From a virus (Duplodnaviria; Heunggongvirae; Uroviricota; Caudoviricetes), in IMG/VR virus record IMGVR_UViG_2617270976_000003, positions 1 to 13,188 of that record: a stretch of DNA of 13,188 nucleotides, one strand, 5' to 3'. Both the position numbers and the translations under genes were made by a program. Each line of letters begins with the position of its first letter. The stretch's first letter is position 1. Positions 1 to 13,188 of this stretch are shown piece after piece. The notes beneath the pieces are model-generated. The model was not told the DNA's origin. It ran no database searches and saw only the letters and a list, made by a program, of their open reading frames with translations.

Positions 1-1
1 C

Positions 2-118: not shown

Positions 119-540
119 CCTCGCGCATACAGCCGGGCAGTGACGTCATCGTCTGCGCGGAAATGGACGAACAGTGGGGCTATGTCGGGGCTAAATCGCG
201 CCAGCGCTGGCTGTTTTACGCGTATGACAGTCTCCGGAAGACGGTTGTTGCGCACGTATTCGGTGAACGCACTATGGCGACGCTGGGGCGTCTTATGAGC
301 CTGCTGTCACCCTTTGACGTGGTGATATGGATGACGGATGGCTGGCCGCTGTATGAATCCCGCCTGAAGGGAAAGCTGCACGTAATCAGCAAGCGATATA
401 CGCAGCGAATTGAGCGGCATAACCTGAATCTGAGGCAGCACCTGGCACGGCTGGGACGGAAGTCGCTGTCGTTCTCAAAATCGGTGGAGCTGCATGACAA
501 AGTCATCGGGCATTATCTGAACATAAAACACTATCAATAA
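37..540 (+). CDS. insB: IS1 InsB (transposase catalytic part; expressed in vivo as the InsAB' frameshift fusion)
   Basis: 167-aa [28 protein letters not shown]...HYLNIKHYQ, which I recognise as the IS1 InsB sequence; it sits in the -1 frame relative to insA. Confidence 0.9.
94..100 (+). other. IS1 programmed -1 ribosomal frameshift slippery heptamer (A6C) producing the InsAB' transposase
   Basis: Sequence aaaaaac at 94-100 inside cttaaaaaactcagg, near the insA 3' end and overlapping the insB frame; this is the established IS1 recoding site. Confidence 0.8.
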
Positions 541-560
541 GTTGGAGTCATTACCTGTTA

Positions 561-1247: not shown

Positions 1248-1255
1248 GTTCGGAA

Positions 1256-2290
1256 TTATTCTTCTGAAAGAATATAGGGCGTAAATTTAATCACTTCTTC
1301 GCCCAGCCAGTCGTTCAGCTCTTGTAGCCTTTTTTGCAAGGGCGTTAATTCATTACGTACAAATACGCGACTGGCCTTCTCCACATCCCCAAACCCTCCA
1401 ACATTATTAGGCATAATCCCCATCATTTGCGGCGGCACGCGGTGCGCAGCCATCATGTCGTCGCGGCTGACATTTTTGATATTCAAAAACTCATCCTTCG
1501 CCGCGACTTCTGACAATGGGATGATCTGAAGCCCGTCTTTTTTGCCGTTAGGCGAGTACATAAACAGGTTGCGGAAGTTGCCTGGACCTTTGGCGCTTTT
1601 CATCGCATTGCGGAGGTTGTTCACATCCTCCTGGTTTTGCGCGGCATCGGTCATGTACATGATAAAGCCCGCATGACTGCCGTTAATGTAATACTTGCGA
1701 CGGAACAGCGTGGCGGACTCGTTGAGCAGGGCTGACGGAATGGCAGAAAGATAACCGGGCAGGCCGTAGATCTCCTGATTAATATCCGGTTCCATCAGAT
1801 GAAAAATGCTGCCTTTCGTGAACTGATACGGCTGGGTTGTCATACCGTATTGCACAAACCAGTAGGTATCCAGGTCTAACCCGCGTCGGGTGTATTTTGC
1901 CAGTGCAGGCTCAAGGGCGATAACTTCACCGAAGCGGTTCGTGCGTTTCTCCAGGTAGGCGTTACCAAAAACCAGATAGTCCTGCACAAAACGCGAAAAA
2001 GCCTGCTGGCTGAGCAGCGGGTGAGGGATGTAGGTGCTGGTCAGAATGTTGCACTTTACTGCAATCGGGGAACTATGATGCACGGCAGCGCGGAAGGTGC
2101 GCGCCAGTCCGTCAAAGCTGACGGGCGGCTCATACCAGCGGTCCATCTGTACGCATTCCACATAATCCAGCAGTTCTCGGCGGTCCAGAACAGGAACGGG
2201 ATCGCCGAAGCTGAATGCTTCGGCTGTAGTTTGACTTTTAAGCTGGATCTGTTTCGTCGCCGCAGCGCGGTTCTTCTTACTCTTTCCCAT
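1256..2290 (-). CDS. Q: Portal (capsid portal vertex) protein, P2 gpQ-like
   Basis: 344 aa from the ATG at 2290-2288, the same length as P2 gpQ; immediately downstream of the large terminase with a TGATG stop/start overlap, as in P2. The ORF track extends it by one TTG codon to 2293. Confidence 0.9.
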   Translation of the reverse strand: MGKSKKNRAAATKQIQLKSQTTAEAFSFGDPVPVLDRRELLDYVECVQMDRWYEPPVSFDGLARTFRAAVHHSSPIAVKCNILTSTYIPHPLLSQQAFSRFVQDYLVFGNAYLEKRTNRFGEVIALEPALAKYTRRGLDLDTYWFVQYGMTTQPYQFTKGSIFHLMEPDINQEIYGLPGYLSAIPSALLNESATLFRRKYYINGSHAGFIMYMTDAAQNQEDVNNLRNAMKSAKGPGNFRNLFMYSPNGKKDGLQIIPLSEVAAKDEFLNIKNVSRDDMMAAHRVPPQMMGIMPNNVGGFGDVEKASRVFVRNELTPLQKRLQELNDWLGEEVIKFTPYILSEE

Positions 2291-4056
2291 CAAAAAATCT
2301 CCACAATATTGCTGGTATTGGCGGATTCGCCCTGCAGCGGTTCGTTAAACAGTGCGTGCATCGTTGCCCAGGCCAGATCGGCGTGGCTGGCTTCTTCGCT
2401 GCGGCTGGCTTCATAGGTCGGGCGGTTGCCACTGGCGGTGGTGGCGCGACGGATTGCCATAAAGGACTGCGCTATGTCGGTGTGTCCGGCGTCAAACTCC
2501 AGACGGCGGTGGCTGATAATGTCGTAGGCCTTGAGTACCAGGGCGTTTTTAACGTTGGGGTTGTAGACAAACTCCCGGACGGCAGGAAAAAACGCTTTCA
2601 CGTTCTCGTAAACCCCGTGACCAACGCCGGTTGAGTCGATACCGATATAGGTCACGTTGTACTGTTCGGTCAGTTTTTTGATGGCGTCAGCCTGGGCGCG
2701 GAAGTCCATTCCGCGCCACTGGTGACGCTCAAGAATGCGGAACTTACCGCCCGGCACGGCTGGCGGCGCCACCACCACGCATCCGGCGCTGTCGCCGTTC
2801 TGCGTACCTTTCGCCGGGTCATATCCGATCCACACTTCGCGCCAGCCAAACGGGCGCAGGGCCAGTGCATGAAAGTCGGTCCAGACTTCCCAACTGTCCA
2901 CCATGCACGCCTGCAGCTCGCTGAGCGGGAACACGGACGCGAGATCGTCCACGAACTCGCACATCAGCAGGTTCTGGTATTCGTCCGGGCTGTACTCCAT
3001 GCGCAACTGGTCAAGGTCGAACAGGTTACAGCCGCCGCGCACCGCATCTTCCACGGTGACTATCTGGCGGTACTGCCCGTCTGCGCACAGCAGGCCGGGG
3101 GCCAGATTGCTGTGGGACAGGTCGATGTCCACCTTATCGGCTTTGTTGCGCCCTCGGTTGAACAGCGCACCGGACCAGAACGGATAAGCACTGTGTGTCA
3201 GGCTGGATGGCGTGGAAAAATAGGTTTGTCGCCATTTTTTGTGAATAGCCATACCGGAAGCCACTTTGCGCAGCTCCTGGAATTTCGGTATCCAGAAATA
3301 TTCATCCAGATACAGGTTGCCGTGGTAACTCTGGGCCGTGCGGGCATTGGTGCCGAGGAAGTAAAGCGTGGCCCCGTTAGGAAGCACCATCGGATCGCCT
3401 TTCAGCTCCACCTCGACTTCTTTGGCGAAGTCGATGATGTACTGCTTAAAGACGTGGGCCTGTGCCTTACTGGCGGAAAGGAAAATCTGGTTACGTCCGG
3501 TCAGCAGGGCGTCAATCAGGGCTTCACGGGCAAAGTAAAAGGTCGCGCCGATCTGGCGAGACTTCAGCAGGTTGCGGATGCGATTGGTTTTTCCGGCTTC
3601 CCACCAGTGGCGCTGGTAGTTGAACATGGAGGAATGGAAGATTTCTTCCAGCTTCTCAATCTGTTCATCGGTGAAAACATTCTTTTCCGGCTGACGGCGC
3701 GGCCCTTTGTTGCGGTTGGCGACGTTAGGGTTTAAGTCGGCTTCGTTGCCGCCATTGTTAAACTTGCCGATCCGCGCGTGGCGCTCCGACTGGCGCGCCA
3801 GCAGGTCAATTTCTTTGAAATCTTTCCCTTCTTTGTGCTCCTTCATAATGAGCTGGCAGTAGCGGGCGGCGGTGGTGAGCTGCATCTGATCCAGCGGCCC
3901 ATAGTCACCCCACTTGTCGCGTTTTTTCCAGCTGTGAACGGTTGCAACTTTCTCGCCCAGCATTTCAGCAATGCGGGCTACGCGGTATCCCTGAAAGTAC
4001 AGCAGCATGGCCTGCCGACGGGGATCGAGATCTGCGGGTGTCAGTGTGGTGTTCAT
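2290..4056 (-). CDS. P: Terminase large (ATPase) subunit, P2 gpP-like
   Basis: 588-aa ORF (P2 gpP is ~590 aa), divergent from the scaffold/capsid operon as in P2. The long plus-strand ORF inside it is antisense noise. Confidence 0.9.
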   Translation of the reverse strand: MNTTLTPADLDPRRQAMLLYFQGYRVARIAEMLGEKVATVHSWKKRDKWGDYGPLDQMQLTTAARYCQLIMKEHKEGKDFKEIDLLARQSERHARIGKFNNGGNEADLNPNVANRNKGPRRQPEKNVFTDEQIEKLEEIFHSSMFNYQRHWWEAGKTNRIRNLLKSRQIGATFYFAREALIDALLTGRNQIFLSASKAQAHVFKQYIIDFAKEVEVELKGDPMVLPNGATLYFLGTNARTAQSYHGNLYLDEYFWIPKFQELRKVASGMAIHKKWRQTYFSTPSSLTHSAYPFWSGALFNRGRNKADKVDIDLSHSNLAPGLLCADGQYRQIVTVEDAVRGGCNLFDLDQLRMEYSPDEYQNLLMCEFVDDLASVFPLSELQACMVDSWEVWTDFHALALRPFGWREVWIGYDPAKGTQNGDSAGCVVVAPPAVPGGKFRILERHQWRGMDFRAQADAIKKLTEQYNVTYIGIDSTGVGHGVYENVKAFFPAVREFVYNPNVKNALVLKAYDIISHRRLEFDAGHTDIAQSFMAIRRATTASGNRPTYEASRSEEASHADLAWATMHALFNEPLQGESANTSNIVEIF

Positions 4057-4102
4057 GGCACAAACCTACAGCCTTGAATGAAGGCTTTCCCCGCCTGCGG
4101 TT

Positions 4103-4120
4103 TGTGTGGTTGTCGGTACA
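4103..4120. promoter_or_regulatory. Candidate late-promoter activator (Ogr/Delta-type) binding element, TGT-N12-ACA, in the P/O divergent region
   Basis: tgtgtggttgtcggtaca fits the TGT-N12-ACA partial dyad reported around -55 of P2-family late promoters; its centre is ~87 bp upstream of the O start codon, compatible with a rightward promoter carrying a ~30-nt leader. Motif match only. Confidence 0.4.
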
Positions 4121-4198
4121 AATACCGCGCATTGTTTCACTGCCCCCATCACCGCAACCATAAGGCTCCAGTAAGTTTTTTCTAACGGAGCACGGCTC

Positions 4199-5032
4199 AT
4201 GACAGTGAAAGCAAAGCGTTTTCGCATCGGGGTGGAAGGTGCCACTACCGACGGACGCGAAATCCAGCGTGAATGGCTGGAACAGATGGCAGCCAGCTAC
4301 AACCCGGCGGTGTATACCGCGCTGATTAACCTTGAGCACATTAAGTCTTATCTGCCGGACAGCACGTTTAACCGCTACGGCAAGGTGACGGCGCTGTTTG
4401 CTGAAGAAATCGCGGAAGGTCCGCTGGCAGGCAAGATGGCACTGTATGCCGACGTTGAGCCAACGGAGTCCCTGGTGGAACTGGTGAAAAAAGGCCAGAA
4501 ATTATTCACCTCTATGGAAGTCAGCCCGAAGTTTGCTGATACGGGCAAAGCCTACCTGGTCGGCCTGGCTGCCACTGATGATCCCGCCAGTCTGGGTACG
4601 GAAATGCTGACATTCAGCGCCAGTGCAGCCCATAACCCGCTGGCAAACCGCAAGCAGAATCCTGCCAATCTTTTTACCGCTGCAGAGGAAACGGTGATCG
4701 AACTGGAAGAAATCCAGGAGGACAAGCCGTCCCTGTTTGCCCGCGTCACGGCGCTGTTTACCAAAAAAGAGCAGTCCGATGACGTCCGGTTCTCTGATGT
4801 GCATAAGGCCGTGGAACTGGTCGCCACTGAGCAGCAGAACCTGAGCACGCGCACCGAAAAATCCCTGTCTGAGCAGGAAGAACGCCTGTCTGAGCTGGAG
4901 ACTGCTCTGCAGGAGCAGCAAACCGCCTTTAACGAACTGGTGGATAAGCTGAGTCATGAAGACAGCCGCCAGGACTACCGCCAGCGTGCAACAGGCGGCA
5001 ACGCCCCCGCTGACACTCTGACCAATTGCTGA
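4199..5032 (+). CDS. O: Capsid scaffolding protein, P2 gpO-like
   Basis: 277-aa ORF; N-terminal FRIGVEG..DGR and C-terminal ATGG....TLTNC closely resemble P2 gpO as recalled; GGAG RBS upstream; position before the major capsid gene. Confidence 0.92.
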   Translation: MTVKAKRFRIGVEGATTDGREIQREWLEQMAASYNPAVYTALINLEHIKSYLPDSTFNRYGKVTALFAEEIAEGPLAGKMALYADVEPTESLVELVKKGQKLFTSMEVSPKFADTGKAYLVGLAATDDPASLGTEMLTFSASAAHNPLANRKQNPANLFTAAEETVIELEEIQEDKPSLFARVTALFTKKEQSDDVRFSDVHKAVELVATEQQNLSTRTEKSLSEQEERLSELETALQEQQTAFNELVDKLSHEDSRQDYRQRATGGNAPADTLTNC

Positions 5033-5048
5033 TGGAGCATAAAACCCA

Positions 5049-6107
5049 ATGAAGAAGAATACCCGTTTTGCTTTTAACGCTTACCTGCAGCAACTGGCGC
5101 GTCTGAACGGTGTGGCAGTTGAGGAACTGTCCAGCAAGTTCACCGTAGAGCCGTCTGTGCAGCAGACGCTGGAAGACCAGATCCAGCAGTCCGCCGCTTT
5201 CCTGACGCTGATTAACGTCACGCCAGTGACTGAGCAGTCCGGTCAGCTGCTTGGATTGGGTGTTGGCAGCACCATTGCCGGAACCACTGACACCACCGCG
5301 AAAGAGCGTGAACCTGTCGATCCGACGCTGATGAGCGATGTGGAATACAAATGCGAACAGACCAACTTTGACACGGTGCTGACCTACGCGAAGCTGGACC
5401 TGTGGGCGAAGTTTCAGGATTTCCAGGTGCGTATCCGTGACGCCATCGTGAAACGCCAGGCACTGGACCGCATCATGATCGGCTTTAACGGCGTGAAGCG
5501 TGCGAAAACCTCCAACCGTAGCGAAAACCCGCTGCTGCAGGATGTGAACAAAGGCTGGCTGCAGAAAATCCGTGAGGATGCACCGGATCACGTCATGGGC
5601 AGCACCACCACGGGCGGTGAAACCACACCGGGTGCGGTGAAAGTCGGGAAAGGTGGCGAATATGCCAACCTGGACGCCGTGGTGATGGATGCGGTCAATG
5701 AGCTTATCGACGTGGTCTACCAGGACGATGACGATCTGGTGGTGATTTGCGGTCGTGAGCTGCTGTCTGACAAGTATTTCCCGCTGGTCAACAAAGAGCA
5801 GGAAAACAGTGAAAAACTGGCTGCCGATATGATCATCAGTCAGAAACGCATGGGTGGCCTGCAGGCCGTGCGTGCGCCGTTCTTCCCGCCGAATGCGCTG
5901 CTGATCACCCGTCTGGATAACCTGTCCATTTACTGGCAGGAAGACACCCGCCGCCGTTCGGTTATCGACAACCCGAAACGTGACCGGATTGAAAATTTTG
6001 AATCCGTTAACGAAGCCTATGTGGTTGAGGACTACCGCTGCGCCGCACTGGTGGAAAACATCCAGATTGGCGACTTCAGCGCCGCCGCAGCAGAAACCGG
6101 AGCGTAA
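5049..6107 (+). CDS. N: Major capsid protein, P2 gpN-like
   Basis: 352-aa ORF with strong recalled similarity to P2 gpN throughout (e.g. RFAFNAYL, FTVEPSVQQTL, LDLWAKFQDFQVRIRDAIVKRQALD, GFNGVKRA, LAADMIISQKR); GGAG RBS. Confidence 0.95.
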   Translation: MKKNTRFAFNAYLQQLARLNGVAVEELSSKFTVEPSVQQTLEDQIQQSAAFLTLINVTPVTEQSGQLLGLGVGSTIAGTTDTTAKEREPVDPTLMSDVEYKCEQTNFDTVLTYAKLDLWAKFQDFQVRIRDAIVKRQALDRIMIGFNGVKRAKTSNRSENPLLQDVNKGWLQKIREDAPDHVMGSTTTGGETTPGAVKVGKGGEYANLDAVVMDAVNELIDVVYQDDDDLVVICGRELLSDKYFPLVNKEQENSEKLAADMIISQKRMGGLQAVRAPFFPPNALLITRLDNLSIYWQEDTRRRSVIDNPKRDRIENFESVNEAYVVEDYRCAALVENIQIGDFSAAAAETGA

Positions 6108-6110
6108 ACC

Positions 6111-6761
6111 ATGAGCCTGAGTCCCGCACGGCAGCATCGCCTGCGCGTTCAGGCTGAACAGGCCGCCCGCGAGGGCGGCAGCGTTCGCCACGCGTCGGGC
6201 TATGACCTGATGCTGCTGCAACTGGCAGAAGACCGCCGCCGTCTCAAGGGCGTTCAGTCCACGGTCAAAAAAGCGGAAATCAAGGTGGAGCTGCTGCCGA
6301 AATACGCCGCCTGGGCGGAGGGTGTCCTGGCTGCCGGAGGCGCTCAACAGGATGACGTGCTGATGTACGTGATGCTGTGGCGCATTGATGCCGGAGATTA
6401 TGTCGGAGCGCTGGAGATCGGGCGTCATGCCCTGCGTCATGGCTGGGTGATGCCGCTGGGTAACCGCAACGTGCAGACCGTGCTGGCAGAGGAAATGGCA
6501 GACGCAGCGCAGAGCGCAATGCTTGCCACTACCGGCTTTGATGTCGATCTGCTGCTGCAGACGCTGGAGCTGACAGACGGTCTGGATATGCCGGACCAGT
6601 CACGGGCGCGTCTGCATAAAGCGATTGGCGCTGTCCTGAGTGAAAGTAATCCGGCTTCCGCCCTTAATCATCTCAACCATGCGTTACAGCTCGATCCCCG
6701 CTGTGGCGTGAAAAAAGACAAACAGCAGCTGGAGCGCAGACTGCGCAATGACAGCCGCTGA
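6111..6761 (+). CDS. M: Terminase small (endonuclease) subunit, P2 gpM-like
   Basis: 216-aa ORF directly after N; recalled similarity to P2 gpM (RHA.GY..ML..LA.D, GAQQDDVLM.VMLWR.D.GD..GALEI); shorter C-terminus than P2 gpM (~247 aa). Confidence 0.9.
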   Translation: MSLSPARQHRLRVQAEQAAREGGSVRHASGYDLMLLQLAEDRRRLKGVQSTVKKAEIKVELLPKYAAWAEGVLAAGGAQQDDVLMYVMLWRIDAGDYVGALEIGRHALRHGWVMPLGNRNVQTVLAEEMADAAQSAMLATTGFDVDLLLQTLELTDGLDMPDQSRARLHKAIGAVLSESNPASALNHLNHALQLDPRCGVKKDKQQLERRLRNDSR

Positions 6762-6856
6762 CAGAACGTGCCCCCGCGCACGGGCGGCACGGGGTGGCGA
6801 AAGGCACTGCCACATCAAAACCCCGTCCACCGCCCTTTATTTCAGGAGAAAGCAGC

Positions 6857-7321
6857 ATGAAGTTTGTTGCGCCAGAACAGGCACCGGAACAGGCGGAAAT
6901 CATCAGAAATACGCCGTTCTGGCCTGATGTGGACCTGTCGGAGTTTCGCAGTGTCATGCGCACTGACGGCACGGTGACGCAGCCGCGTTTAAAGCAGGTT
7001 GCGCTGTCGGCAATTTCGGAGGTCAACGCAGAGCTGTATGAGTTTCGCAGACGCCAGCAGATGCTGGGGTATGCCTCGCTGGCAGAAGTCCCGGCGGAAC
7101 AACTGGACGGCAAAAGCGAGCGCATTCAGCACTATTTCAACGCGGTTTACTGCTGGGCACGCGCCATGCTCAACGAACGTTACCAGGACTATGACGCCAC
7201 GGCATCCGGTGCGAAGCGAGGCGAGGAACTGGCGGAAGCAAGCGGTGATTTATGGCGTGACGCCCGCTGGGCCATCAGCCGGGTGCAGGATGCGCCGCAC
7301 TGCACAGTGGAGCTTATCTGA
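6857..7321 (+). CDS. L: Head completion/stabilisation protein, P2 gpL-like
   Basis: Start chosen at the ATG at 6857, which has an AGGAG RBS 8 nt upstream; the ORF-track start at 6794 has no RBS and would add a non-homologous N-terminus. ELWRD.RWA..R.Q..P.C.V..I at the C-terminus resembles gpL. Confidence 0.88.
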   Translation: MKFVAPEQAPEQAEIIRNTPFWPDVDLSEFRSVMRTDGTVTQPRLKQVALSAISEVNAELYEFRRRQQMLGYASLAEVPAEQLDGKSERIQHYFNAVYCWARAMLNERYQDYDATASGAKRGEELAEASGDLWRDARWAISRVQDAPHCTVELI

Positions 7322-7524
7322 TGAAAGTGCGTGCGCATCAGTATGACACGGTGGACGCACTTTGCTGGCGTCATTACGGGCGCACGCAGGGTGTCACGGA
7401 GCAGGTACTGAAGGCAAATCCGGGGCTTGCCGAATACGGCCCCTTTTTACCTCACGGGCTGCAGGTGGAGCTGCCGGACATTCCGACAACCACCACCGTG
7501 CAGACCGTCCAGCTATGGGACTGA
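7321..7524 (+). CDS. X: Tail protein X (LysM-like), P2 gpX-like
   Basis: 67 aa, the same length as P2 gpX; ATGA stop/start overlap with L; conserved position before the lysis cassette. Confidence 0.85.
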   Translation: MKVRAHQYDTVDALCWRHYGRTQGVTEQVLKANPGLAEYGPFLPHGLQVELPDIPTTTTVQTVQLWD

Positions 7525-7527
7525 ATT

Positions 7528-7743
7528 ATGACGCTTGAGCGAATCAGCGCCTTTATCACGTATTGCATCGCCGTCGTGCTGGCCTGGCTGGGCGATTTGT
7601 CCATCAAGGATGCCTCAACGCTGGGCGGCCTGATGATTGGTGTGCTGATGCTGGCTATCAACTGGTACTACAAACACAAAGCCTACCAGCTTCTGCGCGA
7701 CGGGCAGATTTCGCGGGAGGACTATGAATCCATCAATCGTTAA
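7528..7743 (+). CDS. Holin, small two-TMD class (possibly a pinholin given the SAR endolysin downstream)
   Basis: 71 aa with two hydrophobic segments (ISAFITYCIAVVLAWLG and LGGLMIGVLMLAINWYY) and a charged C-terminal tail; overlaps the endolysin start by 20 nt. Confidence 0.8.
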   Translation: MTLERISAFITYCIAVVLAWLGDLSIKDASTLGGLMIGVLMLAINWYYKHKAYQLLRDGQISREDYESINR

Positions 7744-8239
7744 ACGCTGCCTTGTCGGGGCCGTGCTGGCTATTGCTGCCACGCTGCCGGGGTTTCAGCA
7801 GCTTCACACCTCCGTGGAGGGGCTGAAACTGATTGCCGATTACGAAGGTTGTCGTCTGCAGCCGTATCAGTGCAGCGCGGGTGTCTGGACCGACGGCATT
7901 GGAAATACGTCGGGCGTCATTCCCGGCAAAACAATCACGGAACGACAGGCAGCAGAAGGGCTTATTTCCAACGTGCTGCGTGTGGAGCGGGCGCTGGAAA
8001 GGTGTGTGAAGCAACAGCCGCCGCAGAAGGTATATGACGCTACGGTGTCGTTTGCCTTCAACGTGGGAACGGGCAATGCCTGCAGTTCTACGCTGGTGAA
8101 ATTGCTCAATCAGCGGCGCTGGGCAGAAGCGTGCCGACAGTTGCCGCGCTGGGTTTATGTGAAAGGTGTGTTTAATCAGGGGCTGGATAACCGCCGTGCG
8201 CGGGAGATGGCCTGGTGCCTTAAAGGAGCTGGATTATGA
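7724..8239 (+). CDS. SAR (signal-anchor-release) endolysin, T4-lysozyme fold, P1 Lyz-like
   Basis: 171 aa. N-terminal Gly/Ala-rich weakly hydrophobic segment with a Cys (KRCLVGAVLAIAATLPG) followed by EGLKLIADYEGCRLQPYQCSAGVWTDGIGNT, which closely matches the P1 Lyz catalytic region as I recall it, including the Cys pair. GGAGG RBS. Confidence 0.88.
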   Translation: MNPSIVKRCLVGAVLAIAATLPGFQQLHTSVEGLKLIADYEGCRLQPYQCSAGVWTDGIGNTSGVIPGKTITERQAAEGLISNVLRVERALERCVKQQPPQKVYDATVSFAFNVGTGNACSSTLVKLLNQRRWAEACRQLPRWVYVKGVFNQGLDNRRAREMAWCLKGAGL

Positions 8240-8664
8240 CGCGTGCGCTGGCGGTAGTGGCGGCGCTGGCACTCGTTGCGCTGGGCTGGCAGTCGTGGCG
8301 GCTTAACAGCGCCAGCCACACCATCGAAACGCAGCGCACGGCGCTGAAAAGTAAAGCGCACGAACTAACGAAGAAAAATAGCCAGCTGATCAGTCTGTCC
8401 ATTCTGGCTGAAACCAATAACCGGGAGCAGGCGCGGCTCTATGCCGAAGCAGAACAAACCAGCGCGCTGCTGAGACAACGACAACACCGGATCGAGGAAC
8501 TGAAACGTGAGAACGAGGATTTACGCCGCTGGGCTGATACTCCTTTGCCTGCTGACATTATCCGGCTGCGGGAACGTCCGGCACTCACCGGAGGTGCAGC
8601 TTACCGTCAGTGGTTGTCCGCGAGTGACGCCGTGTCGGCTGGAGCAGGCAGCGCCGCGCACTAA
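8236..8664 (+). CDS. lysB: Inner-membrane spanin (i-spanin), LysB/Rz-like
   Basis: 142 aa, N-terminal TMD (LAVVAALALVALGW) then coiled-coil-like charged region; AAAGGAG RBS; contains the embedded lysC start in another frame. Confidence 0.85.
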   Translation: MTRALAVVAALALVALGWQSWRLNSASHTIETQRTALKSKAHELTKKNSQLISLSILAETNNREQARLYAEAEQTSALLRQRQHRIEELKRENEDLRRWADTPLPADIIRLRERPALTGGAAYRQWLSASDAVSAGAGSAAH

Positions 8665-8797
8665 CGGTGATCTGAACGCATTGCTGGATGAAACGGAGGC
8701 CGCCTGGGCGGTCTGTGCAGACAAAGTGGACATGATTATTGCGTGTCAGGAGCGAAACAGTGAACAAACCACAATCCCTGCGCCACGCCCTCAATAA
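8507..8797 (+). CDS. lysC: Outer-membrane lipoprotein spanin (o-spanin), LysC/Rz1-like
   Basis: GTG-initiated 96-aa ORF in the +1 frame overlapping the lysB 3' end; signal peptide with lipobox LTLSGC. Start codon choice is tentative. Confidence 0.75.
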   Translation: MRTRIYAAGLILLCLLTLSGCGNVRHSPEVQLTVSGCPRVTPCRLEQAAPRTNGDLNALLDETEAAWAVCADKVDMIIACQERNSEQTTIPAPRPQ

Positions 8798-9191
8798 AGC
8801 AGTGCCTTATGTCCGCAATAACCCGGATAAGCTGCATCTGTTTGTGGATAACGGTTCGCTGGTTGCCACGGGGGCCAGCTCCATGTCATGGGAGTACCGT
8901 TATACCCTCAACGTGGTGATTGAGGATTTCAGCGGCGACCAGAATCTGCTGATGGCCCCGGTTTTGCTGTGGCTGCGTGATAACCAGCCCGATGCCATCA
9001 ATAATCCGGCGTTACGGGAAAAGTTATTCACCTTTGAGGTGGATATTCTGCGCAACGATGTCTGTGATATCAGCCTCAACCTGCAACTGACGGAACGTGT
9101 GCTGGTCAGCACTGACGGAAGTGTGTCGAGCGTTGAAGCAGTAGCGGAACCCGATGAACCTGAAGAAATGTGGACGGTGAAACGTGGCTGA
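8760..9191 (+). CDS. R: Tail completion protein, P2 gpR-like
   Basis: Start placed at GTG 8760 (AGGAG 8 nt upstream); the ORF-track TTG at 8739 adds 7 non-homologous residues. FVDNGS, RYTLNVV, LLWLR.NQPD and LTER.LVS resemble gpR. Confidence 0.85.
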   Translation: MNKPQSLRHALNKAVPYVRNNPDKLHLFVDNGSLVATGASSMSWEYRYTLNVVIEDFSGDQNLLMAPVLLWLRDNQPDAINNPALREKLFTFEVDILRNDVCDISLNLQLTERVLVSTDGSVSSVEAVAEPDEPEEMWTVKRG

Positions 9192-9636
9192 ACTGCAGAA
9201 GGTGGACGACTGGCTGAGTGCTTTGCTGGCGAATCTGGAACCAGCCGCAAGAAGCCGAATGATGCGCCAGCTGGCGCAGGAACTGCGCCGGACACAGCAG
9301 CAGAATATCAGGATGCAGCGCAATCCAGATGGCAGCAGTTATGAGCCGCGCAGGGTAACAGCACGCAGCAAGAAGGGGCGCATCAAACGTCAGATGTTTG
9401 CAAAGCTGCGCACCACAAAATACCTGAGAACTGCCGCCAGCGCGGATTCTGCCAGCGTACAGTTTGAAGGTAAGGTACAGCGTATTGCCCGTGTTCATCA
9501 CTACGGTCTGCGCGATCGCGTCAGTCCAAAGGGGGGAGTCATTAAGTATCCATCCCGAAAATTGCTGGGTTTAAATGAACATACTGAAAATGAAGTAAGA
9601 GATTTACTTTTAAAGTATTTATTGATGAAAAATTAG
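9184..9636 (+). CDS. S: Tail completion protein, P2 gpS-like
   Basis: GTG start overlapping the R stop; 150 aa, as P2 gpS; DWLS.L..NLEP and ARVHH.GLRDRV resemble gpS. The last ~30 codons are encoded by markedly AT-rich DNA (see findings). Confidence 0.88.
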   Translation: MAELQKVDDWLSALLANLEPAARSRMMRQLAQELRRTQQQNIRMQRNPDGSSYEPRRVTARSKKGRIKRQMFAKLRTTKYLRTAASADSASVQFEGKVQRIARVHHYGLRDRVSPKGGVIKYPSRKLLGLNEHTENEVRDLLLKYLLMKN

Positions 9637-9641
9637 AATGT

Positions 9642-10172
9642 TTACGCTCTTAATAAACTTAAATAACTTTTTATGCTTTGGCAAAAAGGGAAAAGGTCTA
9701 TTTTAATTTTCCAGTTTTTTTTGTTTTGAACCCCAGAAGCAATAATAGAACCGTCCCAATATTTTATTCCATTTTTGCCGGTCTTTTTTGTTAACTCAAA
9801 ACTTAATGCGTGAATAATTTTATTGCAGCATTCGCGTATAGAATCTTTAACATGACCATCTATAACAAAAAGTATATTTTCATGTTCTTCAAATGCTTCT
9901 TTCTCAGGTGAGTAATCTGGGTTCCACTCATGTTCACTAGTGTCTTGGAGAATTCGTAGTTTTGTACAAAGGCTAATAAGATTGTTGCTAATGGTATATT
10001 CCAACCATCCGTTGTACGATAACTCCTCCATTTCAAATTCAGTTACTATAGAACCATCATATACTTTCTGTGTGGAATATATACGCTGTAAATAAAATTC
10101 AGATGAACAGCATAATTGCTCAATTATTCTTGCGTGTTCTTCTATAGCGTAATAATCAATTGGATGGCTCAT
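9642..10172 (-). CDS. Hypothetical protein of unknown function in a very AT-rich island; candidate defence or accessory cargo
   Basis: 176 aa from the ATG at 10172-10170 (MSHPIDYY...), with an AAAGG RBS about 7 nt upstream. The ORF-track start at 10211 has no RBS and overlaps the dyad element at 10204-10221. Stop is 5 bp from the S stop (convergent). No homologue recognised; contains RECCNKIIH (R113, N117, H121; nt 9810-9836). Confidence 0.75.
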   Translation of the reverse strand: MSHPIDYYAIEEHARIIEQLCCSSEFYLQRIYSTQKVYDGSIVTEFEMEELSYNGWLEYTISNNLISLCTKLRILQDTSEHEWNPDYSPEKEAFEEHENILFVIDGHVKDSIRECCNKIIHALSFELTKKTGKNGIKYWDGSIIASGVQNKKNWKIKIDLFPFCQSIKSYLSLLRA

Positions 10173-10203
10173 TCTTTTACCTTTCTTTGATTGGAATTGT
10201 ATT

Positions 10204-10221
10204 TGTGTCATTTACCACACA
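10204..10221. promoter_or_regulatory. Candidate late-promoter activator site (TGTGT-N8-ACACA inverted repeat, fits TGT-N12-ACA) between the cargo gene and V
   Basis: tgtgtcatttaccacaca is a perfect 5-bp inverted repeat and fits the P2-family late-promoter dyad. Caveat: its centre is only ~55 bp upstream of the V start codon, which leaves no room for a leader if the -55 rule holds, so spacing is atypical. Confidence 0.35.
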
Positions 10222-10267
10222 AGGACGTATTGATGCCATAGATTCAAGGTCCGTGCAACCTAACCCT

Positions 10268-10846
10268 ATGAACGCACAACTAACCGAAATCATGCGCCTT
10301 ATCACCAACCTGATCCGCACTGGTGTAGTCACCGAAGTGGACCGGGAAAACTGGCTTTGCCGGGTGAAAACGGGCGAGCTTGAAACCAACTGGATCAGCT
10401 GGCTGACGCTGCGTGCCGGGAATGCCCGCACATGGTGGCGACCATCGGAAGGTGAGCAGGTGGTGCTGCTGAGTCTGGGCGGCAATCTGGAAACTGCCTT
10501 TGCGCTGCCCGCTGTCTATTCGAATCAGTTCGCACCACCGTCGACGTCGGCAGACGCCTGCGTGACAGAACATCCTGACGGCGGCTGGTTTGAATACGAA
10601 CCCACTACCGGGCGCTGGTATGTCAGGGGCATCAAATCAATGGTCATTGAGGCCGCTGACAACATCACCATGAAAACCAGTGAGTTTGTACTGGAGGCTG
10701 ACCGCACGCGCATTAACAGCGAAGTGGTGATCAATGGTGGCGTTACCCAGGGCGGCGGAGCGATGAGTTCTAACGGGATCGTGGTTGATGCGCATCAGCA
10801 TACTGACGTCCTGAAAGGCGGCGACACAACCGGAGGCCCGGTATGA
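10268..10846 (+). CDS. V: Baseplate central spike protein, P2 gpV-like
   Basis: Start set at the ATG at 10268 (MNAQLTEIMRLITNLIRTG), which aligns with the gpV N-terminus as recalled; the ORF-track start at 10160 lies inside the reverse cargo gene and is rejected. RAG..RTWW.PS.GEQV....GG.L.TAF.LP.YS matches gpV. Confidence 0.88.
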   Translation: MNAQLTEIMRLITNLIRTGVVTEVDRENWLCRVKTGELETNWISWLTLRAGNARTWWRPSEGEQVVLLSLGGNLETAFALPAVYSNQFAPPSTSADACVTEHPDGGWFEYEPTTGRWYVRGIKSMVIEAADNITMKTSEFVLEADRTRINSEVVINGGVTQGGGAMSSNGIVVDAHQHTDVLKGGDTTGGPV

Positions 10847-11202
10847 CGCTTTATAGCGGGATGAACAATACCAGCGGTAAAGCCATTACTGATATTGATC
10901 ATCTGCGCCAGTCGGTGCGGGACATTTTGCTGACGCCGCAGGGTAGCCGCATTGCCCGTCGGGAATATGGTTCCCTGCTGTCGGCACTGATAGACCAGCC
11001 ACAAAATCCGGCATTACGCCTGCAGGTCATGTCGGCAGTGTATGTGGCGCTGAGTCGCTGGGAGCCACGGCTGACGCTGGATTCCATCACCATTAACAGC
11101 AATTTTGACGGTTCAATGGTGGTGGAGCTGACCGGGCGGCGTAATAACGGTGTGCCTGTTTCCCTTTCCGTATCAACAGGAGCAGAGAATGGCAGTGATT
11201 GA
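10843..11202 (+). CDS. W: Baseplate wedge protein (gp25/lysozyme-like fold), P2 gpW-like
   Basis: 119 aa; ATGA overlap with V; GGAGG RBS; REYGSLL and DQPQ.PAL resemble gpW. Confidence 0.88.
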   Translation: MTLYSGMNNTSGKAITDIDHLRQSVRDILLTPQGSRIARREYGSLLSALIDQPQNPALRLQVMSAVYVALSRWEPRLTLDSITINSNFDGSMVVELTGRRNNGVPVSLSVSTGAENGSD

Positions 11203-12097
11203 CCTTTCGCAGTTGCCTGCGCCGCAGATTGTGGATGTGCCGGACTTTGAGACGCTGCTTGCCGAACGCAAGGCAGAATTTGTGGCGCTTCATCCGAAAG
11301 ATGAGCAGGAAGCAGTGATCCGCACGCTGGAACTGGAATCTGAACCCGTCACCAAATTGTTGCAGGAGAATGCTTACCGTGAGTTGCTTCTGCGCCAGCG
11401 CATTAACGAAGCTGCGCAGGCGGTGATGGTGGCTTATGCCATAGGGGGCGATCTGGACCAGCTCGCCGCCAACTACAACGTGAAACGCCTGACGGTGACG
11501 CCTGCTGATAATGACGCTGTGCCGCCCGTTGCAGCTGTGATGGAAAGCGATGAAGCGTTACGCCTGCGTGTGCCTGCAGCCTTTGAAGGGCTTTCAGTTG
11601 CGGGGCCAACTGCAGCTTATGAATTTCATGCCCGAAGCGCCGACGGTCGGGTGGCGGATGCCAGTGCAACCAGCCCGGCACCTGCAGAGGTGGTGCTGAC
11701 TGTCCTTAGCCGCGAAGGCGATGGAACTGCAGAAAAAGACCTGCTGGACGTGGTGGAAAAAGCTCTGAACAGTGAGAACGTCCGCCCGGTGGCTGACCGT
11801 CTTACGGTTCGCAGCGCAGAAATCATCCCGTATCGCGTGGAAGCCACCATTTTTCTCTATCCGGGACCGGAAGCAGAGCCGGTAATGGCAGCGGCAAAAG
11901 CCAGTCTGCAGAAGTACATTGCCAGCCAGACGAGGCTTGGTCGGGATATTCGCCGTAGCGCCATCTTTGCTGCTCTGCATGTTGAGGGTGTTCAACGTGT
12001 GGAACTGGCTTCTCCGCTGGCGGATGTGGTCCTGAACAAAACACAGGCGGCATCATGTACGCAGTGGAGCGTAACCAACGGAGGAACGGATGAATAG
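11189..12097 (+). CDS. J: Baseplate assembly protein, P2 gpJ-like
   Basis: ATG at 11189 with AGGAG RBS gives 302 aa, the length of P2 gpJ; the ORF-track start at 11150 is an upstream extension. Confidence 0.88.
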   Translation: MAVIDLSQLPAPQIVDVPDFETLLAERKAEFVALHPKDEQEAVIRTLELESEPVTKLLQENAYRELLLRQRINEAAQAVMVAYAIGGDLDQLAANYNVKRLTVTPADNDAVPPVAAVMESDEALRLRVPAAFEGLSVAGPTAAYEFHARSADGRVADASATSPAPAEVVLTVLSREGDGTAEKDLLDVVEKALNSENVRPVADRLTVRSAEIIPYRVEATIFLYPGPEAEPVMAAAKASLQKYIASQTRLGRDIRRSAIFAALHVEGVQRVELASPLADVVLNKTQAASCTQWSVTNGGTDE

Positions 12098-12695
12098 TCT
12101 GCTGCCACCGGGTTCAACTTCACTGGAGCGCCGACTGGCGCAAACCTGTAGCGGGATTTCTGATCTGCAGGTGCCGCTGCGTGACTTGTGGAATCCGGCT
12201 ACCTGTCCGGTCAGCTTCCTGCCTTATCTCGCCTGGGCGTTCTCTGTGGATCGCTGGGACGAGGGCTGGACAGAAAGCGTCAAACGCCAGGTAGTGAAGG
12301 ATGCTTTTTATATTCATCAGCATAAAGGAACTACCAGTGCCGTGCGGCGGGTGGTGGAACCGTTCGGATTCCTGATCCGCATTATTGAGTGGTGGCAGAC
12401 CGGAGAAACACCGGGCACGTTTCGCCTGGATATCGGCGTGCAGGACCAGGGCATCACTGAAGATACCTATCTGGAACTTGAGCGGCTGATAAGCGATGCC
12501 AAACCATGTAGCCGTCACATGATCGGCATGTCCATCAATCTGCAGACCAGCGGTCCGCATTGGGTGGGGGCCGCCAGCTATCTTGGCGAAGAAATCACGA
12601 TCTATCCGTATATCAACGAAACAATTATTTCCGGCGGCACCGCGCATGAAGGCGGGGCGGTCCATGTTATTGACACAATGAGAGTGAATCCATGA
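12090..12695 (+). CDS. I: Baseplate/tail protein, P2 gpI-like
   Basis: 201 aa; overlaps J end; LWNP.TCP, LPYLAWAFSVDRWDE.W, HKGT, RRVVEP.G, PGTFRLDIGV and DAKP.SRH match gpI; somewhat longer than P2 gpI (~176 aa). Confidence 0.88.
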   Translation: MNSLLPPGSTSLERRLAQTCSGISDLQVPLRDLWNPATCPVSFLPYLAWAFSVDRWDEGWTESVKRQVVKDAFYIHQHKGTTSAVRRVVEPFGFLIRIIEWWQTGETPGTFRLDIGVQDQGITEDTYLELERLISDAKPCSRHMIGMSINLQTSGPHWVGAASYLGEEITIYPYINETIISGGTAHEGGAVHVIDTMRVNP

Positions 12696-13188
12696 GCACA
12701 AAATTTTATACCCTGCTGACGGATATTGGCGCGGCGAAACTTGCCAGCGCCGCCGCGCTCGGTGTGCCGCTAAAAATTACTCATATGGCGGTGGGCGATG
12801 GCGGCGGAACATTGCCAACGCCGGACGCCAAGCAGACAGCATTGGTAAATGAGAAACGCCGGGCTGCGCTGAATATGCTCTATATCGACCCGCAGAACAG
12901 CAGCCAGATTATTGCTGAACAGGTGATCCCTGAAAACGAGGGCGGTTGGTGGATACGTGAAGTGGGCCTGTTTGATGAGTCCGGGGCATTGATTGCCGTG
13001 GGCAACTGCCCGGAAAGCTATAAGCCGCAACTGGCTGAAGGCAGCGGGCGTACCCAGACCGTGCGCATGGTGCTGATTACCAGCAGCACGGACAATATCA
13101 CCCTGAAAATCGACCCTGCCGTAGTGCTGGCAACCCGCAAGTATGTGGATGACAAGGTACTGGAGCTGAAGGTGTACGTGGATGATCA
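12692..13188 (+). CDS. H: Tail fibre protein, N-terminal part (P2 gpH-like); 3' end beyond window
   Basis: ATG at 12692 opens a frame with no stop to the window end, so it is absent from the ORF track. Translation MSTKFYTLLTDIGAAKLA...MAVGDGGG...AESYKP.LAEGSGR.QT.RMV matches the conserved gpH N-terminal baseplate-attachment domain. Confidence 0.85.
   Translation, partial: MSTKFYTLLTDIGAAKLASAAALGVPLKITHMAVGDGGGTLPTPDAKQTALVNEKRRAALNMLYIDPQNSSQIIAEQVIPENEGGWWIREVGLFDESGALIAVGNCPESYKPQLAEGSGRTQTVRMVLITSSTDNITLKIDPAVVLATRKYVDDKVLELKVYVDD

What the first reader, a model, noticed from the sequence alone, without database searches (positions are those of the whole stretch)
7528..8239. Lysis cassette uses a P1 Lyz-type SAR endolysin with a cysteine triad and a small two-TMD holin
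The endolysin has an N-terminal Gly/Ala-rich signal-anchor with a Cys (C9) and two Cys in the catalytic region (C43, C50 in EGCRLQPYQCSAG). That is the arrangement I recall for P1 Lyz, where a disulfide cages the active site until membrane release allows thiol isomerisation. Paired with a 71-aa two-TMD holin and no lysA-like gene, this points to pinholin/SAR-type lysis, which I believe differs from canonical P2, suggesting mosaic exchange of the lysis module.
Basis: partly seen in the sequence, partly recalled or inferred. Interest (0 to 1): 0.35.

Follow-up and report, generated by a model that had tools for sequence, protein, structure and literature searches.

The report
P1 Lyz-type SAR endolysin, P2-like prophage
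This is the host-lysis gene cluster of a common P2-like E. coli prophage, whose cell-wall enzyme looks like the well-studied membrane-tethered, disulfide-locked lysozyme of phage P1; near-identical copies are already in databases and one has been described in print, so it is ordinary.

Summary
Window 7528-7743 encodes a 71-aa holin with two hydrophobic segments. Window 7724-8239 encodes a 171-aa GH24 lysozyme. Its 16 uncharged N-terminal residues (C9-F24) follow K7R8. Its motif E41-G-C43-x6-C50-x5-T56 aligns without gaps to P1 Lyz E42/C44/C51/T57, whereas R21 has Val and Asp at the two Cys positions.

No lysA lies between the endolysin and LysB. LysB and LysC spanins follow.

The best reading is a P1 Lyz-type SAR endolysin regulated by disulfide caging. 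This is inferred from sequence; nothing was tested biochemically.

It is not new:
- The window is 99.9% identical to Escherichia phage Cartapus.
- Felsduovirus phages share the same layout.
- The P2-like phage HP1, whose Lys carries the same Cys triad, was shown experimentally to use a pinholin plus a SAR endolysin.

"Pinholin" is plausible but unproven: the holin falls in the HP1 holin family, yet its TMD1 is far more hydrophobic than those of S21 or HP1. Absence of lysA is unrelated to the lysis type, because most close relatives with the same holin and endolysin carry lysA. Interest is low.

The parts
7528..7743 (+). Class II holin, 71 aa, two hydrophobic segments (res 6-22, 28-47), charged C-terminus, single start codon (in-frame TGA 3 nt upstream)
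   Evidence: ORF. Pfam Phage_holin_2_3 (HP1 holin family) 36.7 bits > 28.8; P21 S family 23.2 < 26. PHROG 20 holin E 2e-26. Hydropathy. 100% identical to the Cartapus and KP12 proteins.
7724..8239 (+). GH24 (T4-lysozyme family) endolysin, 171 aa, predicted SAR endolysin of the P1 Lyz type
   Evidence: PF00959 E 3e-40. PDB best hit P1 Lyz 1xjt E 3e-26, then R21 3hde 2e-17. 100% identical to the Cartapus endolysin. 97% identical to KP12.peg.319. AF2 model best Foldseek hit 1xjt, TM 0.75.
7748..7795 (+). Codons 9-24 (CLVGAVLAIAATLPGF): putative SAR (signal-arrest-release) segment, 16 uncharged residues after K7R8, containing Cys9
   Evidence: 44% Gly/Ala/Ser/Thr; crude Hessa sum +5.5 for the 19-mer against +0.5 for P1 Lyz and +0.8 for R21. 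C9 invariant in 33 homologues. A Cys in this segment in 20 of 22 related clusters.
7844..7891 (+). Codons 41-56: catalytic motif E41-G-C43-RLQPYQ-C50-SAGVW-T56 (Glu-8x-Cys-5x-Thr, with the caging Cys two residues after Glu)
   Evidence: Gap-free alignment to P1 Lyz E42/C44/C51/T57 and HP1 Lys C49/C56; R21 has V and D at the Cys positions. Meaning of the motif from PMC3556154.
8236..8664 (+). LysB, i-spanin (N-terminal TMD, coiled coil), start overlaps the endolysin stop (ATGA)
   Evidence: TIGR03495 phage_LysB 177 bits (cut-off 92.75). PHROG 89 Rz-like spanin. 31% identity to P2 LysB.
8507..8797 (+). LysC, o-spanin lipoprotein (GTG start, lipobox LSGC, Cys21), +1 frame inside lysB, running past its end into gpR (overlapped architecture)
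   Evidence: NF038368 P2_Rz1 124.7 bits (cut-off 27). Pfam LysC PF23793. 41% identity to P2 LysC. Not annotated in the Cartapus RefSeq record.

Best explanation
This is the lysis cassette of a P2-like (Peduoviridae, Elveevirus) prophage, with the gene order holin, endolysin, LysB, LysC, lying between tail genes X and R in the late operon. The endolysin is a P1 Lyz-type SAR endolysin. Inferred mechanism, by homology: the Sec system exports the GH24 domain while residues 9-24 hold it in the inner membrane as an uncleaved type II signal anchor. In that tethered form the catalytic Cys50 is locked in a disulfide with Cys43, so the enzyme is inactive. When the holin depolarises the membrane, or slowly on its own, the weakly hydrophobic anchor leaves the bilayer. 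The thiol of Cys9 then attacks the cage to form C9-C43, freeing Cys50 to complete the Glu41/Cys50/Thr56 triad, and the murein is degraded. LysB and LysC then disrupt the outer membrane. The 71-aa two-TMD holin supplies the timing by collapsing the proton-motive force. Because a SAR endolysin does not need large holes it may be a pinholin, as shown for the family's namesake in HP1, but that is not established here. Shown here: gene anatomy, family membership, residue equivalence and conservation. Inferred: topology, lack of cleavage, disulfide isomerisation and hole size.
For: Anatomy and families. P1 Lyz is the best solved relative (E 3e-26). Gap-free equivalence of E41/C43/C50/T56 with Lyz E42/C44/C51/T57; R21 lacks both Cys. 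[quoted passage not shown] N-terminal segment: 16 uncharged residues after KR, 44% Gly/Ala/Ser/Thr, predicted to insert more poorly than the proven SAR domains of P1 Lyz and R21. Its central 'AIA' aligns with the same tripeptide in P1 Lyz and R21. Evolutionary coupling: of 22 distinct 50%-identity clusters with an N-terminal hydrophobic segment plus the C..C pair, 20 have a Cys in that segment. C9 and C50 are invariant and C43 at least 90% conserved in 33 homologues. The AF2 model resembles active full-length Lyz (1xjt, TM 0.75) more than the inactive form (1xju, 0.55). HP1, a P2-like phage whose Lys has the same triad (C11/C49/C56), was shown experimentally to have a SAR endolysin that lyses E. 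coli alone, Sec-dependent release, and a holin that kills without letting beta-galactosidase out (PMC7312051). The window holin belongs to that Pfam family. The 97%-identical KP12 endolysin was modelled as Lyz-like with a conserved SAR helix (PMC9902359).
Against: There is no experiment on this protein or on any close relative; the KP12 authors state that lytic activity was not verified. C9 sits at the extreme N-terminal (cytoplasmic) edge of the hydrophobic segment and is not in the same alignment column as P1 C13. The E-x-C-x6-C pair is not specific to SAR enzymes: 25 of 70 soluble-looking relatives have it too. The hydrophobic segment is short (16 residues) and contains A-I-A, so a cleavable signal peptide cannot be excluded without a dedicated predictor or an experiment. 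The AF2 model is mediocre (pLDDT 71) and is least confident exactly over residues 42-69, which hold C43, C50 and T56. For the holin: pairwise similarity to HP1 Hol is insignificant (21%, E 0.9), and TMD1 is far more hydrophobic than the S21 or HP1 TMD1.
Confidence: 0.8

Rival explanations
1. The N-terminal segment is an ordinary cleavable Sec signal peptide. The lysozyme would be secreted as a soluble periplasmic enzyme, as with fOg44 Lys44, and controlled by some means other than membrane tethering.
For: The hydrophobic core is only 16 residues, follows a basic n-region (K7R8) and contains A16-I17-A18. The crude insertion energy is poor (+5.5). SignalP and HMMER called the corresponding HP1 Lys segment a signal peptide according to PMC7312051.
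Against: The AIA lies in the middle of the hydrophobic core, not in a polar c-region, and no small-x-small site follows the core (LPGFQQLHTS). The same AIA aligns with P1 Lyz and R21; both of those are uncleaved SAR domains according to my own knowledge of Xu 2004 and Sun 2009, which were not held here. Cleavage would discard Cys9, yet that Cys is invariant and is coupled to the C..C pair in 20 of 22 clusters. The HP1 authors concluded SAR, not cleaved.
Confidence: 0.08
2. It is a SAR endolysin, but it is regulated sterically like R21 by refolding of the released SAR helix into the catalytic domain. The cysteines would play no isomerisation role.
For: The C43/C50-type pair also occurs in many soluble GH24 enzymes with no TMD (25 of 70), so it predates or is independent of SAR control. 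C9 is not in the P1 C13 column and lies at the membrane edge. R21 is also a significant relative (E 2e-17).
Against: The catalytic Asp position is Cys here, whereas R21 has Asp. A periplasmic Cys pair seven residues apart is expected to be oxidised (inference from Dsb biology). The third Cys co-occurs with the SAR-plus-C..C combination in 20 of 22 clusters, while SAR-like relatives with Asp mostly lack it (2 of 3).
Confidence: 0.08
3. Holin sub-claim only: the 71-aa protein is a canonical large-hole class II holin rather than a pinholin. The SAR endolysin would simply use the depolarisation it causes, as P1 Lyz does with LydA.
For: TMD1 (ISAFITYCIAVVLAWLG) is strongly hydrophobic: Kyte-Doolittle 2.1 and Hessa sum +2.4, against +6.4 for S21 TMD1 and +6.8 for HP1. 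This argues against the S21-style exit of TMD1. The score is below the cut-off for the P21 S family. There is no dual-start antiholin. Most close relatives pair it with a LysA-like multi-TMD protein, as P2 does with its canonical holin. P1 itself uses canonical holins with a SAR endolysin (PMC9025707).
Against: It is a member of the Pfam HP1 holin family, whose namesake behaves as a pinholin (PMC7312051). Genes for SAR endolysins typically adjoin pinholin genes (PMC9025707). The P1 pinholin LydD also has a hydrophobic TMD1, so hydrophobicity alone is not decisive.
Confidence: 0.35

Closest known systems
Phage P1 Lyz (PDB 1XJT active, 1XJU inactive)
   Same: GH24 fold. N-terminal SAR-like segment containing a Cys. 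Glu-8x-Cys-5x-Thr triad with a second Cys two residues after Glu, at gap-free equivalent positions. Best sequence and structure hit in the PDB. The C-terminal Cys pair C137/C165 aligns with P1 C150/C178.
   Different: Only 37% identity. The SAR core is shorter (16 against 20 uncharged residues) and less hydrophobic. The SAR Cys lies at the N-terminal edge (C9, 34 residues before the caging Cys, against 31 in P1) and in a different alignment column. It lacks the 11-residue insertion of P1 and HP1 after FNxG. In P1, lyz is followed by the pinholin gene lydD, and the canonical holin operon is unlinked; here the holin is upstream and spanins are downstream.
Haemophilus phage HP1 hol/lys (P2-like, Hpunavirus), shown experimentally as pinholin plus SAR endolysin (PMC7312051)
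   Same: A P2-like phage. The holin is in the same Pfam family (PF16080), has no dual start, and overlaps the endolysin gene. The endolysin has the same Cys triad (C11/C49/C56) and is followed by a LysB-like gene.
   Different: Endolysin identity is 34%. Holin pairwise similarity is not significant (21%, E 0.9). HP1 holin TMD1 is weakly hydrophobic, whereas the window's is strongly hydrophobic. The cassette position differs: after the tail tube gene in HP1, between X and R here.
Escherichia phage Cartapus, Klebsiella phage KP12 and Felsduovirus phages (RE-2010, SopEPhi, Fels-2 group)
   Same: Cartapus: 99.9% DNA identity, with 100% identical holin and endolysin. KP12: holin 100% and endolysin 97% identical, published as Lyz-like SAR. 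RE-2010: same gene sizes and order without lysA, holin 80% and endolysin 92% identical, same seven Cys.
   Different: KP12, 4LV2017, 500465-1 and vB_EcoM-813R9 have a 378-bp lysA-like gene between the endolysin and lysB. None of these records annotates the Cys triad. Cartapus lacks a LysC annotation.
Canonical P2 (and 186) lysis cassette Y-K-(lysA)-lysB-lysC
   Same: Same position between X and R. LysB and LysC are homologous (31% and 41% identity) with the overlapped spanin architecture. Flanking L, X, R and S are 39-61% identical.
   Different: P2 Y is a 93-aa, three-peak Phage_holin_3_2 protein. P2 K is a lambda-R-type soluble enzyme (1am7, E 5e-44) with one Cys and no significant BLASTP similarity to the window endolysin (E 0.1). 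P2 has lysA.
Phage 21 S21/R21 (pinholin plus SAR endolysin)
   Same: A 71-aa two-TMD class II holin upstream of a GH24 SAR endolysin, followed by spanins. R21 is a significant relative (E 2e-17).
   Different: R21 has Asp at the catalytic position and no Cys cage. S21 has a dual start and a weakly hydrophobic TMD1. The window holin scores below the S21 family cut-off.

Membership tests
GH24 / T4-lysozyme-type phage endolysin | Phage_lysozyme domain with the Glu-8x-Asp/Cys-5x-Thr catalytic triad | tested here: met
   PF00959 137.7 bits (cut-off 22.3). E41, C50 and T56 aligned to P1 Lyz E42/C51/T57. Triad definition from PMC3556154.
SAR endolysin | N-terminal weakly hydrophobic, Gly/Ala/Ser/Thr-rich uncharged segment after a basic residue, directly preceding the catalytic domain | tested here: met
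   K7R8 followed by 16 uncharged residues C9-F24, 44% G/A/S/T. Crude insertion energy is poorer than for the P1 Lyz and R21 SAR domains.
SAR endolysin | Segment is not cleaved by signal peptidase; the protein is first membrane-tethered, then released | not testable with these tools
   No signal-peptide predictor or experiment was available. Indirect evidence only: the AIA is inside the hydrophobic core, and Cys9 is conserved.
SAR endolysin | Sec-dependent, holin-independent lysis that is triggered by membrane depolarisation | not testable with these tools
   Shown for HP1 Lys (PMC7312051), but not for this protein or its close relatives.
P1 Lyz-type disulfide-caged SAR endolysin | Catalytic Cys in place of Asp, plus a caging Cys two residues after the catalytic Glu | tested here: met
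   C50 and C43 are in the same columns as Lyz C51 and C44. C50 is invariant and C43 at least 90% conserved.
P1 Lyz-type disulfide-caged SAR endolysin | A free Cys inside the SAR domain to perform the isomerisation | tested here: met
   C9 is the first residue of the hydrophobic segment and is invariant. It is not in the P1 C13 column. It co-occurs with SAR plus the C..C pair in 20 of 22 clusters.
P1 Lyz-type disulfide-caged SAR endolysin | C43-C50 disulfide in the tethered form, switching to C9-C43 on release | not testable with these tools
   Needs thiol trapping, mutants or crystal structures. The AF2 output gives no coordinates and is of low confidence over residues 42-69.
P1 Lyz-type disulfide-caged SAR endolysin | Fold like full-length active Lyz, with the SAR helix packed on the catalytic domain | tested here: inconclusive
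   The best Foldseek hit is 1xjt (TM 0.75, 174 columns) against 1xju at 0.55. The model pLDDT is only 71.
Pinholin (phage 21 S21 type) | Membership of the P21 holin S family | tested here: not met
   PF04971 23.2 bits, below the cut-off of 26. No BLASTP hit to S21.
Pinholin (phage 21 S21 type) | Weakly hydrophobic, releasable TMD1 and a dual-start antiholin | tested here: not met
   TMD1 Hessa sum is +2.4 against +6.4 for S21. There is a single Met start with an in-frame stop just upstream.
Pinholin (functional class) | Forms small lesions that depolarise the membrane but do not pass proteins | not testable with these tools
   Shown only for HP1 Hol (PMC7312051).
HP1 holin family (Pfam PF16080, class II) | Profile match above the gathering score; small protein with two hydrophobic segments and a charged C-terminus | tested here: met
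   36.7 bits against a cut-off of 28.8, profile positions 3-54 of 56. Two hydrophobic peaks. HP1 Hol itself scores 84.6 bits.
Canonical P2 lysis cassette | Y-type holin (PF04550), lambda-R-type endolysin K, and lysA | tested here: not met
   No ORF lies between the endolysin and LysB.
Canonical P2 lysis cassette | LysB/LysC overlapped two-component spanin | tested here: met
   TIGR03495 177 bits and NF038368 124.7 bits, both above their cut-offs.

The most novel reading that the evidence does not exclude
The SAR segment of this Elveevirus/Felsduovirus clade is unusually short and poorly hydrophobic: 16 uncharged residues, with an insertion energy far worse than for P1 Lyz or R21. Its thiol sits at the cytoplasmic edge. 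One reading is that membrane tethering is only a weak brake here, and that the disulfide cage is the main control. The facultative LysA-like membrane protein (present in about 780 complete E. coli genomes and absent in about 234) would then tune timing. That would make this a natural pair of otherwise near-isogenic cassettes for asking what LysA does in a SAR-endolysin context.
Probability: 0.1. Interest if true: 0.3.

Novelty: already known. Interest (0 to 1): 0.1.

Why it matters
It matters little beyond correct annotation. The protein should be labelled a SAR endolysin of the P1 Lyz (disulfide-caged) type, with its start at M1. At least one public record starts it at V14, which removes the regulatory Cys. 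LysC should be annotated. It confirms that Peduoviridae carry at least two non-homologous holin/endolysin pairs at the same locus: the Y/K type in P2 and 186, and the class II holin plus Lyz-type SAR endolysin in Elveevirus, Felsduovirus and HP1. For anyone cloning this endolysin as an enzybiotic, the practical point is that the full-length protein is expected to be toxic and membrane-targeted, and that its activity should depend on the redox state of C9, C43 and C50.

Tried and rejected
- The primary papers were requested and are not held: Kuty 2010 on disulfide caging, Xu 2004 PNAS and Sun 2009 NSMB. The mechanism therefore rests on secondary statements in PMC3556154, PMC9025707 and PMC9239132, plus my own knowledge.
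- A text search for Cys13/Cys44/Cys51 returned only unrelated papers.
- NCBIfam has no model for the holin, and only sub-threshold hits for the endolysin.
- The promoter and terminator scan of 6700-10300 found nothing above shuffled expectation. The cassette sits inside a late operon.
- I checked whether the holin/endolysin pair is a recent compositional import. It is not: GC is 57-59%, as in the flanks.
- A weak BLASTP match of the holin to P2 Y (28% over 54 aa, E 0.002 in a 9-sequence search) was rejected as evidence of homology. It is a TMD-on-TMD match, and the two proteins fall in different Pfam families.
- The many 296-aa 'endolysin+PF28015' database proteins were considered as natural endolysin-LysA fusions. 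I judged them most likely frameshifted gene calls: nearly all are single-member clusters, and the sequence switches frame near residue 160.
- Structure prediction with a shallow alignment (33 sequences, at least 81% identical) gave only pLDDT 71. It could not be used to measure Cys-Cys distances because no coordinates are returned.
Full report
**1. What is in the sequence**

The ORF list and the raw sequence confirm the reported genes.
- A 71-aa ORF lies at 7528-7743 (+).
- A 171-aa ORF lies at 7724-8239 (+). It overlaps the first ORF by 20 nt and is preceded by a strong GGGAGGA ribosome-binding site.
- Immediately downstream are a 142-aa ORF (8236-8664; its ATG overlaps the endolysin stop as ATGA) and a +1-frame 96-aa ORF (8507-8797; GTG start, lipobox LSGC).

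Family scans identify the neighbourhood as the late operon of a P2-like phage:

| Gene | Family evidence |
|---|---|
| gpL | PF05926 |
| gpX | PF05489 |
| holin | Pfam Phage_holin_2_3, the HP1 holin family, 36.7 bits against a cut-off of 28.8; PHROG 20 |
| endolysin | PF00959, E 3e-40 |
| LysB | TIGR03495, 177 bits |
| LysC | NF038368, 124.7 bits |
| gpR, gpS | Pfam PF06891 and PF05069 |

The peptide EGCRLQPYQCSAG is present. There are four further Cys, at 94, 120, 137 and 165.

**2. Where the window comes from**

Window 556-13188 is 99.92% identical to Escherichia phage Cartapus (NC_070909; Peduoviridae, Elveevirus), with 10 mismatches and no gaps. It is 100% identical over the same span to a prophage of E. 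coli TOK-001.

The holin and endolysin proteins are 100% identical to those of Cartapus. In all, 930 of 5426 complete E. coli genomes carry at least 80% of the window. This is therefore a very common prophage type that is already deposited and annotated.

**3. Test of the Lyz comparison**

Against all PDB sequences, the best hit is P1 Lyz:
- 1xjt, E 3e-26.
- 1xju, E 8e-25.
- R21 (3hde), E 2e-17.

I took P1 Lyz, R21 and HP1 Lys from their genome records. MAFFT and phmmer alignments place E41/C43/C50/T56 opposite P1 Lyz E42/C44/C51/T57 without gaps. R21 has Val and Asp at the two Cys positions.

The third Cys lies in the N-terminal hydrophobic segment, as in Lyz. However, it sits at the segment's first residue, not in the column of P1 C13.

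**4. The N-terminal segment**

Residues 9-24 (CLVGAVLAIAATLPGF) are the only hydrophobic stretch in the protein.
- It is 16 uncharged residues long, follows K7R8, and is 44% Gly/Ala/Ser/Thr.
- On a crude position-independent Hessa sum it scores +5.5. That is a worse membrane-insertion score than the experimentally established SAR domains of P1 Lyz (+0.5) and R21 (+0.8).

A stable transmembrane anchor is therefore unlikely. A cleavable signal peptide cannot be formally excluded here, because no predictor was available and an A-I-A tripeptide is present. Three points argue against cleavage:
- The AIA lies in the middle of the hydrophobic core, at the same aligned place as in P1 Lyz and R21.
- No small-x-small site follows the core.
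- Cleavage would discard Cys9.

**5. Evolutionary support for a functional triad**

In 33 full-length homologues at 81-98% identity, C9 and C50 are invariant and C43 is conserved in at least 90%.

A search of 1.84 billion cluster representatives gave 16,482 relatives. Among the best 150 I classified the N-termini.
- Of 22 distinct sequences with both an N-terminal hydrophobic segment and the E-x-C-x6-C pair, 20 carry a Cys inside that segment. The two exceptions look N-terminally truncated.
- The segment sequences themselves are very diverse.

The C..C pair alone is not diagnostic, because 25 of 70 soluble-looking relatives without any N-terminal hydrophobic segment also have it. The informative signature is the three-way combination.

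**6. Structure**

An AlphaFold2 model from the shallow alignment has mean pLDDT 71 and pTM 0.75. Confidence is low over residues 42-69, the hairpin that carries C43, C50 and T56.

Its best Foldseek match in the PDB is the active full-length P1 Lyz (1xjt; TM 0.75 over 174 columns), ahead of R21 (0.66) and the inactive Lyz form 1xju (0.55). This is consistent with the Lyz reading but not decisive, and Cys-Cys distances could not be measured.

**7. The holin**

The holin has two hydrophobic segments (residues 6-22 and 28-47), a charged C-terminus and a single start codon with an in-frame stop just upstream. There is therefore no S21-like dual start.

It passes the Pfam cut-off for the HP1 holin family and fails that for the phage 21 S family (23.2 against 26). 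Its homologues in the phage collection are confined to P2-like phages of Klebsiella, Escherichia, Salmonella (SopEPhi, RE-2010, Felsduovirus), Yersinia and Erwinia.

The family's namesake has been studied. In HP1, itself a P2-like phage, the holin kills E. coli without lysis and without releasing beta-galactosidase. The hol deletion blocks phage release. The endolysin lyses E. coli on its own, and phage release is sensitive to azide. The authors concluded pinholin plus SAR endolysin (PMC7312051). HP1 Lys has the same triad, C11/C49/C56.

This makes 'pinholin' a reasonable guess for the window, but three points weaken it:
- Pairwise similarity to HP1 Hol is insignificant (21%, E 0.9).
- TMD1 here is strongly hydrophobic (Hessa sum +2.4), whereas the TMD1 of S21 (+6.4) and of HP1 (+6.8) are weak.
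- P1 shows that SAR endolysins also work with canonical holins (PMC9025707).

I put the pinholin reading at roughly 0.5-0.65 and the canonical-holin rival at about 0.35.

**8. Comparison with P2, and the lysA question**

P2 has Y, K, lysA, lysB and lysC.
- Y is 93 aa, belongs to Phage_holin_3_2 and has three hydrophobic peaks.
- K is 165 aa. Its best PDB hit is lambda lysozyme 1am7 (E 5e-44). It has one Cys and no significant BLASTP similarity to the window endolysin (E 0.1).

By BLASTP, the window's L, X, LysB, LysC, R and S are 31-61% identical to their P2 counterparts, while the holin and endolysin are not detectably related. The statement 'differs from canonical P2' is therefore correct: this is a non-orthologous replacement at a conserved locus.

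It is not a recent event, nor one peculiar to this phage:
- GC content (57-59%) equals that of the flanks.
- Felsduovirus RE-2010 has the identical layout and gene sizes (holin 80% and endolysin 92% identical, same seven Cys).
- HP1 has the same kind of pair.
- Phage 186 keeps the P2-type pair, also without lysA.

The absence of lysA does not point to SAR-type lysis.
- Relatives about 95% identical (vB_EcoM-813R9, KP12, 4LV2017, 500465-1) have the same holin and endolysin plus a 378-bp gene. It encodes a 125-aa protein with four or five hydrophobic segments, annotated LysA, and lies exactly between the endolysin and lysB.
- In complete E. coli genomes, that gene is found in 780 genomes and the lysA-less junction in 234.

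**9. Prior description**

PMC9902359 analysed Klebsiella phage KP12. Its peg.319 is 97% identical to the window endolysin and its peg.320 is 100% identical to the holin. The authors reported the following:
- A TM-align score of 0.83 to 1XJT.
- Conservation of the 'signal-anchor ... and SAR domain of Lyz'.
- A P2-type cassette with overlapped spanins.
- That lytic activity was not verified.

They did not discuss the cysteines. Together with the HP1 experiments, the kind of system and this particular protein family are already in the literature. What this analysis adds is the explicit residue-level triad and its co-variation.

**10. Verdict**

The core interpretation, a P1 Lyz-type SAR endolysin with a Cys triad, is well supported at the sequence level (confidence about 0.8) but not demonstrated. 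The pinholin and lysA inferences are weak. The feature is ordinary and already known, and interest is low.

Noticed in passing
window 1-555: The left end is not phage. ORF 37-540 (167 aa) is an IS1 transposase (PF03400, E 6e-78). The whole-window BLAST hit 74,154 places in E. coli genomes because of it. The IS1 end abuts window 556, which equals Cartapus 169. That is 7 nt into the DUF4145 gene (Cartapus CDS 162-860), so the gene's start is removed and IS1 separates the packaging genes from the position where the Cartapus record annotates its cos site. None of the best-matching complete E. coli genomes listed (12 rows shown) has this junction.
   Followed up: partly
window 561-1247 (+): A DUF4145 protein lies next to the portal gene on the cos-proximal side. 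It has a weak PADLOC hit to PD-T7-4 (E 1e-6), so it is a possible anti-phage defence gene, here truncated at its 5' end by IS1.
   Followed up: partly
window 9642-10211 (-): A 189-aa ORF on the opposite strand lies between gpS and gpV, at the position of P2 orf30. It sits in a sharp 32% GC island within a 55-60% GC genome. It has no Pfam, NCBIfam or PADLOC hit and is annotated hypothetical in Cartapus (where the CDS is shorter, 9255-9785). It looks like a horizontally acquired accessory gene (moron) of unknown function.
   Followed up: partly
window 8218-8277, compared with L002 2419-2854: There is a presence/absence polymorphism of a 378-bp lysA-like gene encoding a 125-aa multi-TMD protein. 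It is absent here, in Cartapus, in Kp4865-2 and in Felsduovirus RE-2010. It is present in most E. coli and Klebsiella relatives (780 against 234 complete E. coli genomes). The last ~7 codons of the endolysin and the first ~14 codons of LysB also differ across the junction.
   Followed up: partly
window 8507-8797 (+): The LysC o-spanin gene scores NF038368 124.7 bits but is not annotated in the Cartapus RefSeq record. It overlaps both lysB and the start of gpR.
   Followed up: yes
L002 1964-2437 (vB_EcoM-813R9): In this public record the endolysin is annotated from a GTG at residue 14. That cuts off the first 13 residues, including the conserved Cys9 and half of the SAR segment. The full ORF with its ATG and Shine-Dalgarno sequence is present in the DNA.
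   Followed up: yes
protein database hits P0015, P0020 etc.: Dozens of 296-aa 'endolysin + PF28015' proteins join the endolysin to the LysA-like protein. Nearly all are single-member clusters that change frame near residue 160. They are most likely frameshift or assembly artefacts rather than natural fusions.
   Followed up: partly
window 7724-8239; representatives: The E-x-C-x6-C pair, including the catalytic Cys, is widespread in soluble GH24 enzymes with no N-terminal hydrophobic segment (25 of 70 examined). The C-terminal pair C137/C165 aligns with Cys pairs in P1 Lyz, HP1 Lys and R21, which suggests a conserved structural disulfide.
   Followed up: partly
window 7847-7930 (endolysin residues 42-69): AlphaFold2 confidence collapses (pLDDT below 50) exactly over the hairpin that carries C43, C50 and T56, while the rest of the catalytic domain is confident. 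This could reflect the shallow alignment, or the two alternative conformations known for P1 Lyz.
   Followed up: no
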